A stretch of 64,000 bases of DNA from Paraspadella gotoi (lineage: Eukaryota > Animalia > Chaetognatha). The notes below the pieces were generated by a model. That model made no database searches. It saw only the letters and a list, made by a program, of their open reading frames with translations, and was not told the origin of the DNA. Of the stretch, positions 28,922 through 55,778 are shown one piece after another (positions within the stretch are counted from its first letter, which is position 1; every line of letters starts with the position of its first letter). The translations under genes and the position numbers were made by a program. The stretch covers positions 584,272-648,271 of the forward strand of contig CM119269.1 of assembly GCA_051294375.1 (NCBI GenBank), read 5' to 3'.

Positions 28922-31042
28922 TCAATCATAAGTGATTATACTTTTTTTTTGGTATAATTCATCAGCTTTTCGAAGTAAATGTGTAACATCGATATGATCG
29001 GGATAACTTTGTAGCAACTTCATATTCGCCGCAAAGTCTCCTGCCATCAGCTCGTCCCTGACGCTAAGAAGCATCGCCAACATGATGTAAACTAGGAAAT
29101 ACGTTTTTTTACATGAATGAATTTCTGATTAAAACATGGTGTATCAATCTGTAAACATTACCGAGAAAATCAAATCTCTCAGGGTGACCAAACAAAGAAT
29201 CCCAAATTCGCTGAGTATCCGGGAGGCTAAACTCTTGGGAAAGTAAAAGGGTTGTCCATCGGAAAGCATAATACTAAAAAAATTAATAAAGTTATGAGTT
29301 ATTATCAGTACATAATTACGAAAGAAATATTAAATAAAAAAGATTTTTTTTTTTAACGCCTACCTGAGGCAGCAAGTTTTGGGATTCTATAAGGTGAGAC
29401 CACAAAGCCTCGTCAAAATATTTCAAAAGGTTCATCAAACCTGTTAATATAATCACGATTAATTATGGGCGTATTAATTTTGAAAACTTAATTTGAACGT
29501 ATAATCGGTCACCTTGCAACCGGAACCTGATTCCCGTTTGCGAATCGTCTAACGTCTTTATGAAAATGTCTCGAATTTCCCCCATGAGGTTGGTGAAACA
29601 ATAAAAAGTATCTGCCTCTGCGGAGGATCGCCATTCTAAAATTAAATTTTGTTTATCACGGAAATTATCAATTGGGAAATTAATTACATTGAAGAGACAG
29701 AAATAATTAATAATTAATTATTATGAGCTAGTGACAGAACCGTTCAATATAAGCAGTTCCTGAGCTTCGGATCAGGCAGAAACACCGTGTTACCGGCGGG
29801 TTAAGCGCCCCGTCCCTCTTAACTGCTAGGCGGCCACCAGGCTAGAACCCCAGACTTTTGATTTGGGAATCGAATGACTTGCTTCCTGCACCAATGGCCG
29901 ATGAAGAACGGTTGGTGCATTTTGGTCCACTATAACGTGTAATTTAGCTAACCTTCGCTGGGATCCGTGGCGAAAGTGTAATAGATGGGTCCGATGATTT
30001 CGTTCATTCCTTGCACATATCCCTGCCCAGGATTCAGTTTGGCGTAAATAAAGAGAATCCTTTCTACAACCTCCCAGTGAGCTTCTTGCCCGTCGCTGAG
30101 ATGTCTGTAGTCGATCGAACTACTAAACGTACATAAATAAAAATAGTTTAACGTGAAATAAGCAAACGCATAGTCTCGTCTCAAGACAAACCTGGTTCTC
30201 CGTTTGGCGTTGACCAAATTGGTCATACCGCTCTTGTTTTTAATCACATTGGTCGCCTCCAACATTGTCTGTTCAACGCGTCGACGAAGGTTGACGATTT
30301 TTGAGCTGGAAGAAGTTAGCTCGCGGCATGGAAACGGCGTGGGAGACTGAACAGTGTCGTAGGGACTTAAGTTGGAGGGAGAGGGGGCTTAATCGTAACC
30401 TAATGGCGCACCTGAAAAAAGTTAAGGTCGGGACAAAGACGCCGAACGTCCTTGTCGATTTGAAGCAGGACTTCATTGTCCTTAAAGTAAGTGGCCCAAC
30501 TGCTCGTGGGATTCGGGTTTAGCGGATGATCGATCATCGTGACATCAACCTTTGCCCCCGACGGAGGAGCCTTAAAAAATGTTAGCAAAAGAAGACCAAT
30601 TTAATAGATTAGTAGTGATGATGACTTGAAGAAAATTAGATAACCTCCATTTTTTTCAAGCCGACCTGTGTTCCAGGATGAACAATCATTTCTTTGATGA
30701 AGTCGTTGTAGGACTGTTTGTGTTTCATAATAAAGCTGCTCCATTCTTTGCGATCTAGAGGGAGGTAGTTGAGCAGTATTTTCCAGGATAGAGATCGAAG
30801 ACCGTAGCCGCCCGATTCTTGAGCGTTGTACGAAACCCCGTGATAAACCAACTTCGCTAATTCATGCGGAACGATGTGGTCTTGTCGAAGCGTCAACTGA
30901 GTTGTAAATGGTTATAAAAATATTCGCAAACCATATTATTAATATGGTAAACAATCTTGCTTACGTGAAACTGATCAATTTTTGCTTTAAATGTCATCGA
31001 AGTAGATTTGGGGAGTGTATTTGCTCTCGCGTCTTCAGCCAT
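28922..31042 (-). CDS. TBC1D13: TBC1 domain family member 13 (Rab-GAP), multi-exon
   Basis: Diagnostic segments WKILLNYLP, DHPLNPNPTSSWATYFKDNEVLLQIDKDVRRLCPD, EAHWEVVERILFIYAKLNPGQGYVQGMNEIIGPIYY, YAFRWTTLLLSQEF. ATG at 31042, TGA at 28924-28922. Confidence 0.92.
29738..29920 (-). mobile_element. tRNA-derived SINE-like element or tRNA pseudogene in a TBC1D13 intron
   Basis: Minus strand 29900-29831 has a 7-bp acceptor-type stem (CGGCCAT/GTGGCCG), an A-box-like TGGTGCAG, a TTCCCAA loop and a B-box-like GGTTCTAGCC. The anticodon and T arms are imperfect. A GC-rich tail follows. Confidence 0.5.
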
Positions 31043-31224
31043 GTTTTTGTGCCCGATTTTCCATCAACGCCGAAAGCAAAAGTTCGAACTATCTTTCTCA
31101 ATTTCATTGCCTCATAGGCTCATATTCTTCTTGCCAAAAAAAAAAATACAAATAAATTAATATATAAATTTAAATACGATTTTTTTTGCATTGGAATAAT
31201 AAAATAACACGAGGGGGAAAAATA

Positions 31225-55064: not shown

Positions 55065-55205
55065 TTTTACTGCCTAGTATTGTTAAATGTACCCTTTAGT
55101 CGGTAAATTAACTAAAGATAAATACTAAACAATATGAAAAACTCTTTGTAAACAAATCGGAGATCTTTCCGTAGAAATAAGGCAAAAAAGATTGTACGAA
55201 AATTT

Positions 55206-55778
55206 TTAAAAAGCTTGGCTCTGCGAAGAGGCTTTGGGTCCTCCCATTTTTTCTTGTTTTTTAGGCAGTAAAGAAGCTTGAATGTTCGGGAGAACGCCGC
55301 CTTGGCTAATGGTGACACCAGAAAGCAGTTTGTTAAGCTCCTCGTCGTTTCGGATAGCGAGCTAAGAGAAAAATTTTTTTAAAAAATATTACAATCTAAT
55401 AAATTTATTTATATTTTCATGGCAAATTAAGCCAAATAAATCTAAAAATATATTTGATGTTCCGACCTGTAGGTGTCGAGGAATAATTCTACTTTTTTTG
55501 TTGTCACGAGCCGCGTTTCCAGCTAATTCAAGAATCTCGGCAGTCAAATACTCAAGCACCGCAGCCATATAAACCGGCGTCCCGGCACCGATGCGCTCCG
55601 CATAATTACCTAGGGTTAAAAGTCGGAATGAAGTACAACTAATTTAGTACTTGAATGTTTAGCCTTTCATTGTACCTTTTCGAAGAAGACGATGGACTCG
55701 CCCCACGGGAAACTGGAGGCCAGCTCTCGAGGATCGACTTTTCGCTTTGACCTTTCCGTCTTTTCCGCGCCCGGACAT
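55206..55778 (-). CDS. H2AX: Histone H2A.X-like variant with two introns, C-terminus ...SSQSQAF
   Basis: MSGRGK...[31 protein letters not shown]...[43 protein letters not shown]...[13 protein letters not shown] plus a tail with a terminal SQ-x-aromatic motif. Confidence 0.88.

What the first reader, a model, noticed from the sequence alone, without database searches (positions are those of the whole stretch)
28922..55778. Candidate eukaryotic operons: stereotyped unpaired 3' splice acceptor ~90 nt after the upstream stop codon
Seen: genes form co-oriented runs leaving two head-to-head regions (SNX13>TBC1D13 on -, MFF>RNF26>SSR4>UBE2V on +, H2A.X>CDK1>ARHGAP19 on -). Three stop-to-ATG gaps are only ~182, ~171 and ~141 nt. 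Each contains a pyrimidine tract + AG at nearly the same distance from the upstream stop (93, 85 and 92 nt), with no convincing GT donor or promoter-like sequence between stop and AG. Known: nematode, tunicate and flatworm operons are resolved by spliced-leader trans-splicing at such unpaired acceptors. Inference: this animal may use polycistronic transcription with trans-splicing. Caveat: T-rich 3'UTRs produce (Y)nAG by chance.
Basis: partly seen in the sequence, partly recalled or inferred. Interest (0 to 1): 0.82.

Follow-up and report, generated by a model that had tools for sequence, protein, structure and literature searches.

The report
Arrow-worm housekeeping gene operons
Three head-to-tail runs of housekeeping genes lie only 141-692 bases apart in what is likely an arrow-worm genome and are likely operons cut apart by spliced-leader trans-splicing, a mechanism already published for arrow worms, while the claimed fixed 90-base spacing of the splice site does not hold up.

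Summary
Gene order, the three gaps (182, 171, 141 nt) and the AGs 93, 85 and 92 nt after the stops are as stated, with no donor before them. The 90-nt spacing is not a real rule. The other three gaps of the same runs put their best candidate AG 108-422 nt out. All 7 control 3' flanks hold an AG scoring above the SNX13 one. Shuffles give P=0.035 before correcting for picking 3 of 6 gaps. The operon idea is probably right but is known biology. The window's UBE2V groups (100/100) with transcripts that begin with the published chaetognath spliced leader SL2, 95-108 nt before the ATG (84 nt predicted here). Spliced RNA contigs matching the window cross three of the four gaps laid, but one also crosses a head-to-head gap, so this is weak. 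Two contigs stop exactly on a predicted acceptor G, hinting at Ciona-like junctions without a spacer. Chaetognath operons are published (2008; 18% of genes, 2025), and the scan noted another in this genome (e1-10588163).

The parts
31225..36109 (-).
   Evidence: Pfam; spliced in run X1
31043..31224 (-). Gap J1, 182 nt; candidate acceptor AG 31131-31130 (weak, AAG, four upstream ATGs follow)
   Evidence: crossed without a break by X1 record 1, piece 30965-31405
28936..31042 (-).
   Evidence: Pfam; homologues; spliced in X1
36110..37661 (.). Head-to-head region with a GC/CpG-rich patch near 36707-36800; inferred bidirectional promoter and outrons
   Evidence: max 60-nt GC 0.63, 13 CpG in 60 nt; promoter function inferred
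37662..39306 (+). MFF; first gene of run 2 (start may be 37662 or 37774)
   Evidence: Pfam Miff; spliced in X1
39307..39998 (+). Gap J5, 692 nt; acceptor not resolved (top score 39730; first AG with no upstream ATG 39978)
   Evidence: crossed by X1 record 2, piece 39080-40204
39999..41691 (+).
   Evidence: Pfam zf-C3HC4_3; spliced in X1
41692..42141 (+). Gap J6, 450 nt; candidate acceptor AG 42086-42087, 394 nt after the stop and 54 nt before the ATG
   Evidence: score 3.98, no upstream ATG; X1 record 2 stops at 42087 with 9 letters left unaligned
42142..42743 (+). SSR4 (TRAP-delta)
   Evidence: Pfam; homologues; intron spliced in X1
42744..42914 (+). Gap J2, 171 nt; candidate acceptor AG 42829-42830, 84 nt before the ATG
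   Evidence: best AG with no upstream ATG; crossed by X1; X2 record 9 ends at 42830
42915..43448 (+). UBE2V; its close relatives carry the chaetognath SL2 leader
55206..55778 (-). Intron-containing histone H2A variant with C-terminal SQ motif (H2A.X-like); first gene of run 3
   Evidence: Pfam; translation
55065..55205 (-). Gap J3, 141 nt; candidate acceptor AG 55113-55112, 47 nt before the ATG
53211..55064 (-). CDK1
   Evidence: tblastn with P0194; cluster name
52878..53210 (-). Gap J4, 333 nt; acceptor not resolved
48377..52877 (-).
   Evidence: Pfam; searches give RhoGAP only
55779..56607 (.). Head-to-head region H2A | zinc-finger (ZFR-like) gene, GC-rich patch near 56078-56160; inferred bidirectional promoter
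   Evidence: max 60-nt GC 0.70; promoter function inferred

Best explanation
These head-to-tail runs of housekeeping genes are likely ordinary chaetognath (arrow-worm) operons: each run would be transcribed from one promoter in the head-to-head region, and the downstream genes would get their capped 5' ends by trans-splicing of a 36-nt spliced leader onto an unpaired AG in the gap. Shown: the gene order, the short gaps, unpaired AGs, spliced RNA crossing three gaps, and the chaetognath leader on close relatives of UBE2V. Inferred: that this species is a chaetognath, that its own UBE2V, CDK1, TBC1D13, SSR4, RNF26 and RhoGAP mRNAs carry a leader, the exact acceptor at each gap, and single-promoter transcription. 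The stop-to-AG distance is then simply the upstream gene's 3' UTR (85-93 nt in the short gaps, about 394 nt at RNF26>SSR4), with the poly(A) site likely at or within a few bases of the acceptor, as reported for the Spadella RPS14-PCNA operon.
For: Locus L001 (UBE2V, 79% identical) begins with 18 nt identical to positions 19-36 of Spadella/Flaccisagitta SL2.0, 95 nt before its ATG (Table 3 of PMC2481426, compared by eye); that 18-mer has no match at 15 or more of 18 in the window. P0004 and P0155 start with the translation of SL2 positions 13-36, 96 and 108 nt before the Met: 2 of 24 close UBE2V proteins (2 of the 6 that read into the UTR) against 0 of 116 distant ones. The window's UBE2V and these sequences form one group, support 100/100 (40 rows picked from 140 UBE2V proteins held). 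The predicted 5' UTR here is 84 nt. Spliced contigs of run X1 cross J1, J5 and J2 without a break. The three short gaps are 27-29% GC with no GC-rich patch, unlike both head-to-head regions. At J2, J3 and J6 the candidate AG is the best one whose first downstream ATG is the start codon. In P. gotoi about half of the genes are trans-spliced and 18% lie in operons, defined by gaps under 250 bp (PMC12460157); in Spadella 3 nt separate poly(A) site and acceptor (PMC2481426).
Against: No leader was seen on any contig matching the window (the loose-end table showed 24 rows and hid 70). A leader on a relative's transcript shows trans-splicing, not an operon: most trans-spliced P. gotoi genes are not operonic (3,565 of 10,197 lie in validated operons), and SSR4-UBE2V adjacency was not shown in any relative. 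The X1 contig that crosses J1 also runs through the head-to-head region (piece 36434-37663), which cannot be one mRNA, so bridging is weak evidence. No leader translation was found for SSR4 (0 of 52 proteins), CDK1 (0 of 23) or TBC (0 of 124), though almost all of these start at a Met and cannot show one. J1's acceptor is weak and is followed by four upstream ATGs. J3 and J4 have no RNA test. P0004 and P0155 belong to one 90% cluster, so the leader evidence amounts to two lineages and one gene.
Confidence: 0.78

Rival explanations
1. The downstream genes are trans-spliced but monocistronic: each has its own promoter inside the upstream gene or its 3' UTR and makes an outron that overlaps the neighbour, so the tight packing is not an operon.
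For: About two thirds of trans-spliced genes in P. gotoi lie outside validated operons. Overlapping outrons would give the same bridging contigs. J4 has a GC-rich stretch (max 60-nt GC 0.57), and J5 and J6 are 450-692 nt long.
Against: Gaps of 141-182 nt must also hold the upstream 3' UTR and the downstream 5' UTR; they lack the GC/CpG patch seen at both head-to-head regions.
Confidence: 0.15
2. The genes are simply tightly packed and conventionally expressed; the AGs are chance features of T-rich 3' UTRs and there is no trans-splicing at these genes.
For: Such AGs occur by chance in most gaps of this composition (P 0.82-0.97) and in 7 of 7 control flanks. No leader was seen in RNA matching the window.
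Against: Close UBE2V relatives carry the chaetognath leader at a matching distance from the ATG.
Confidence: 0.05
3. The pairs persist as stable bicistronic mRNAs, the second gene being translated by re-initiation or internal entry, without resolution.
For: X1 contigs run across J1, J2 and J5 fully spliced on both sides.
Against: De Bruijn contigs join any overlapping RNAs, including across the head-to-head gap. L001 is a leader-bearing UBE2V transcript with no upstream gene.
Confidence: 0.02

Closest known systems
Chaetognath SL-resolved operons: Spadella cephaloptera RPS14-PCNA (PMC2481426) and Paraspadella gotoi genome-wide operons (PMC12460157)
   Same: Co-oriented housekeeping genes with very short gaps; the same leader (SL2) on relatives of a downstream gene; three stop-to-ATG gaps already under the 250-bp criterion.
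   Different: Different genes from the 2008 example. Whether these gene sets are among the 1,470 validated P. gotoi operons could not be checked, because the supplementary table file was too large to read.
Ciona intestinalis operons lacking intercistronic DNA (PMC1488885), and the C. elegans SL1-type operons discussed there
   Same: Candidate acceptors lie inside what looks like the upstream 3' UTR; two contigs stop on the acceptor G; no AATAAA or ATTAAA within 40 nt upstream of the candidate AG at J1, J2, J3 or J6, as in 16 of 18 Ciona operons.
   Different: Different phylum and leader. The poly(A) sites here are not mapped, and the hexamer's absence is also expected by chance.
C. elegans SL2-type operons (about 100-nt intercistronic region; passage in PMC1488885)
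   Same: Polycistronic transcription resolved by trans-splicing at an unpaired acceptor.
   Different: There the 100 nt run from poly(A) site to acceptor; here the 90 nt are counted from the stop codon and are not constant. P. gotoi has no operon-specific leader.

Membership tests
Chaetognath SL-resolved operon | Organism is a chaetognath | tested here: met
   Indirect, one gene: UBE2V groups 100/100 with sequences bearing the chaetognath SL2; no taxonomically labelled chaetognath protein was among the hits
Chaetognath SL-resolved operon | Same-strand neighbours under 250 bp apart | tested here: met
   3 of 6 gaps are under 250 nt even from stop to ATG; the other 3 (333, 450, 692 nt) would need UTR-inclusive gene ends
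Chaetognath SL-resolved operon | Leader on the downstream gene's mRNA | tested here: inconclusive
   Seen on relatives of UBE2V; not seen in contigs matching the window; not seen for SSR4, CDK1 or TBC relatives
Chaetognath SL-resolved operon | One precursor RNA spans the gene pair | tested here: inconclusive
   X1 contigs cross 3 of 4 gaps laid but also a head-to-head gap; contigs are not molecules
Chaetognath SL-resolved operon | Only the first gene has a promoter | not testable with these tools
   Composition contrast only
Chaetognath SL-resolved operon | SL RNA gene elsewhere in the genome (5S cluster in Spadella, PMC2566580 passage) | not testable with these tools
   No genome held; none in the window by Rfam or motif scan
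Ciona-type operon without intercistronic DNA | Upstream poly(A) site coincides with the acceptor AG | tested here: inconclusive
   2 of 6 listed contig right-ends in the gaps stop on the candidate G (42087, 42830); the 9 unaligned letters at 42087 were not displayed
C. elegans SL2-type operon | Constant spacing of about 100 nt before the acceptor | tested here: not met
   Measured from the stop codon (poly(A) sites unmapped): candidate AGs lie 85-93 nt out in three gaps and 108-422 nt in the other three

The most novel reading that the evidence does not exclude
[quoted passage not shown] This would be a spiralian, independently evolved case of that mechanism. One of the operons would also co-transcribe CDK1 with a RhoGAP whose presumed human orthologue is a CDK1 substrate.
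Probability: 0.4. Interest if true: 0.45.

Novelty: new member of a known kind. Interest (0 to 1): 0.2.

Why it matters
As found, it adds three likely operons to a phylum in which operons are already counted in the thousands, so it matters mainly for annotation: UTRs and gene ends here will be mis-merged by RNA assemblies. It would matter more if mapping showed poly(A) sites on the acceptor G as a rule, since how such junctions yield both mRNAs was left open for Ciona (PMC1488885, section 17) and I found no paper describing chaetognath junction structure beyond the single 2008 example (searches).

Tried and rejected
No whole genome is held, so the SL RNA gene and genome-wide gap distribution could not be examined. 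Rfam found 0 matches in the window, and short SL-motif scans found no leader gene. No RNA holder is listed as RNA on record; X1 is treated as RNA because it skips GT..AG introns. The narrow second lay (41900-43100, X1 and X3) was meant to show the letters after 42087 but returned only two records and no loose end at either candidate acceptor; 42088-42227 has no cover, which proves nothing. X2-X5 hold only scraps of the region. A 59-nt 5' UTR intron in UBE2V (strong donor at 42855, AG at 42913) was considered and rejected as the main form: X1 reads through it, and an X5 record holds 42896-42987 unbroken. Leader read-through searches on SSR4, CDK1 and TBC homologues gave nothing. L002-L004 are genomic contigs of other animals and were not used (L004 not viewed). 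AATAAA counts did not separate internal from terminal genes convincingly. Ten of 14 neighbouring gene pairs in the window are co-oriented by my count, which is not clearly above half. Gene names were not found in the three readable supplements of PMC12460157, but the operon table is in the unreadable spreadsheet. Part 1 of 2 of the Spadella trans-spliced gene list showed none of these genes. In one search three of the seven control flanks are followed by a same-strand gene 0.7-1.6 kb away, and the RhoGAP stop was placed about 19 nt off.

Full report
Observation. I read the whole window. The three runs and two head-to-head regions are there, and Pfam supports the gene families. The three cited gaps are 182, 171 and 141 nt from stop to ATG, with AGs 93, 85 and 92 nt after the stop (G at 31130, 42830, 55112). 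No donor-like GT precedes these AGs.

Is the spacing more than chance? I scored every AG with a matrix from 59 cis acceptors of the window: 14 confirmed by RNA joints, 45 read by eye, one of 60 dropped. The cited sites fall at the 17th, 42nd and 58th percentile of real acceptors. Seven of 7 control 3' flanks have an AG within 170 nt that outscores the SNX13 site, 5 of 7 the SSR4 site and 3 of 7 the H2A site (three of these controls are followed by a distant same-strand gene). In 3000 shuffles each gap held an AG of that grade with P 0.82-0.97, and all three fell in one 9-nt span with P 0.035. That figure ignores the choice of 3 gaps out of 6. In the other three gaps the top-scoring AGs lie 188, 108 and 422 nt after the stop. 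The 90-nt rule is therefore not supported.

What organism? An earlier AI note on this genome suggested an arrow worm (e1-10588039); I treated it as a lead. The four best UBE2V homologues are 78-81% identical and unnamed, and the rest are 71% or less. One of the four is encoded by metagenome locus L001, a spliced contig whose first 18 nt equal positions 19-36 of the chaetognath leader SL2.0 in Table 3 of PMC2481426 (compared by eye), 95 nt before the ATG. Two predicted proteins, P0004 and P0155, begin with the translation of SL2 positions 13-36, 96 and 108 nt before the Met. That is 2 of 24 close proteins and 0 of 116 distant ones; the two share one 90% cluster. In a tree of 40 rows picked from these hits, the window's UBE2V and the leader-bearing sequences form one group at 100/100. 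The paper states that these leaders resemble those of no other phylum. The window is thus likely chaetognath, on one gene, and relatives of one downstream gene are trans-spliced with a 5' UTR close to the 84 nt predicted from the AG at 42830.

RNA matching the window. Seven runs were listed, none on record as RNA; five were laid. X1 skips GT..AG introns with few other differences in its long pieces, so it is spliced RNA of this or a near-identical animal. Its contigs cross SNX13>TBC1D13 (piece 30965-31405), MFF>RNF26 (39080-40204) and SSR4>UBE2V (42480-42987) unbroken, but not RNF26>SSR4. The same contig that crosses the first gap also runs through the head-to-head region (36434-37663), so bridging shows only overlapping RNA or DNA carry-over. 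No leader appeared among the 24 loose ends shown (70 hidden) or the one.

A hint on junction structure. X1 record 2 stops at 42087, the G of the best ATG-free acceptor before SSR4, with 9 letters left unaligned that the tool did not display. These are 2 of the 6 listed right-hand contig ends that fall in the gaps; the others are 42764, 42785, 39906 and 39919, and 367 pieces were not shown. An upstream mRNA ending on the acceptor G would give this picture. It matches Ciona operons without intercistronic DNA (PMC1488885, passages and section 17) and the 3-nt spacer of Spadella RPS14-PCNA (PMC2481426). An allele difference or a chance read end would also explain it, so it stays a hint.

Mechanism. 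Most likely each run is transcribed from a promoter in the head-to-head region, both of which have a GC/CpG-rich patch (max 60-nt GC 0.63 and 0.70) that the three short gaps lack (0.30-0.42). Downstream genes would be released by leader addition at an unpaired AG, and the stop-to-AG distance would be the upstream 3' UTR. At SSR4>UBE2V, H2A>CDK1 and RNF26>SSR4 the candidate AG is the best one with no ATG before the start codon; at SNX13>TBC1D13 four upstream ATGs follow it, and the other two gaps are unresolved. The main rival is trans-spliced but separately promoted genes, since only 3,565 of 10,197 trans-spliced P. gotoi genes lie in validated operons. I put the operon reading at 0.78, highest for SSR4>UBE2V.

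Comparison with what is known. SL trans-splicing and an operon in chaetognaths were reported in 2008 (PMC2481426: passages, section 12, part 1 of 2 of supplement 3). The 2025 P. gotoi genome reports nearly half of the genes trans-spliced and 18% in operons, by a 250-bp gap rule (PMC12460157: abstract, passages, section 10, three PDFs searched; the supplementary spreadsheet could not be read and may list these very genes). I also saw passages of PMC2566580 (SL genes in the 5S cluster), PMC7986045 and PMC12646654 (human ARHGAP19 is phosphorylated by CDK1). Searches for chaetognath with operon, spliced leader or intercistronic listed no paper on chaetognath junction structure beyond these. The scan itself noted a nine-gene candidate operon elsewhere in this genome (e1-10588163), which I did not test.

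Verdict. The gene runs are real and likely operons, of a kind already described for this phylum. The stereotyped 90-nt acceptor is a selection effect. Interest 0.2; the open point worth a follow-up is whether poly(A) site and acceptor coincide as a rule.

Noticed in passing
window 45011-45817 (+): Intronless 268-codon ORF with a signal-peptide-like start and about 42 copies of an 18-nt unit, read as Cys/His hexapeptide repeats rich in N-glycosylation sequons. No Pfam match and no Atlas hit at 0.9 or above. It lies co-oriented between UBE2V and a ubiquitin-domain membrane gene, so the + run has six genes. Expression not tested.
   Followed up: partly
window 10405-15768 (+): A 1787-codon unbroken ORF of EGF and laminin-EGF repeats (MEGF6-like by my recall) in a genome whose other genes have many short introns; possibly a retrocopy.
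   Followed up: no
window 17113-28198 (-): The minus-strand run continues past TBC1D13 into an Ig-domain membrane gene (gap 737 nt) and a C2H2 zinc-finger gene (gap 1359 nt, with an assembly gap and its own GC-rich patch).
   Followed up: partly
window 48377-55064 (-): CDK1 sits directly upstream of a RhoGAP. If this is ARHGAP19 (not verified), a kinase and its known human substrate (PMC12646654 passage) share a candidate operon with an H2A.X-like histone.
   Followed up: partly
window 42855-42913 (+): A strong 5' splice site and a possible 59-nt intron in the UBE2V 5' UTR, unspliced in X1 and, for its 3' part, in X5.
   Followed up: yes
window 38630-38910 and 36700-36900: Many unrelated X1 contigs pile up in an MFF intron and at the head-to-head GC patch, suggesting repeated elements.
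   Followed up: no
window 58686-59050: An inverted duplication of a few hundred bases in an intron of the ZFR-like gene, seen by eye.
   Followed up: no
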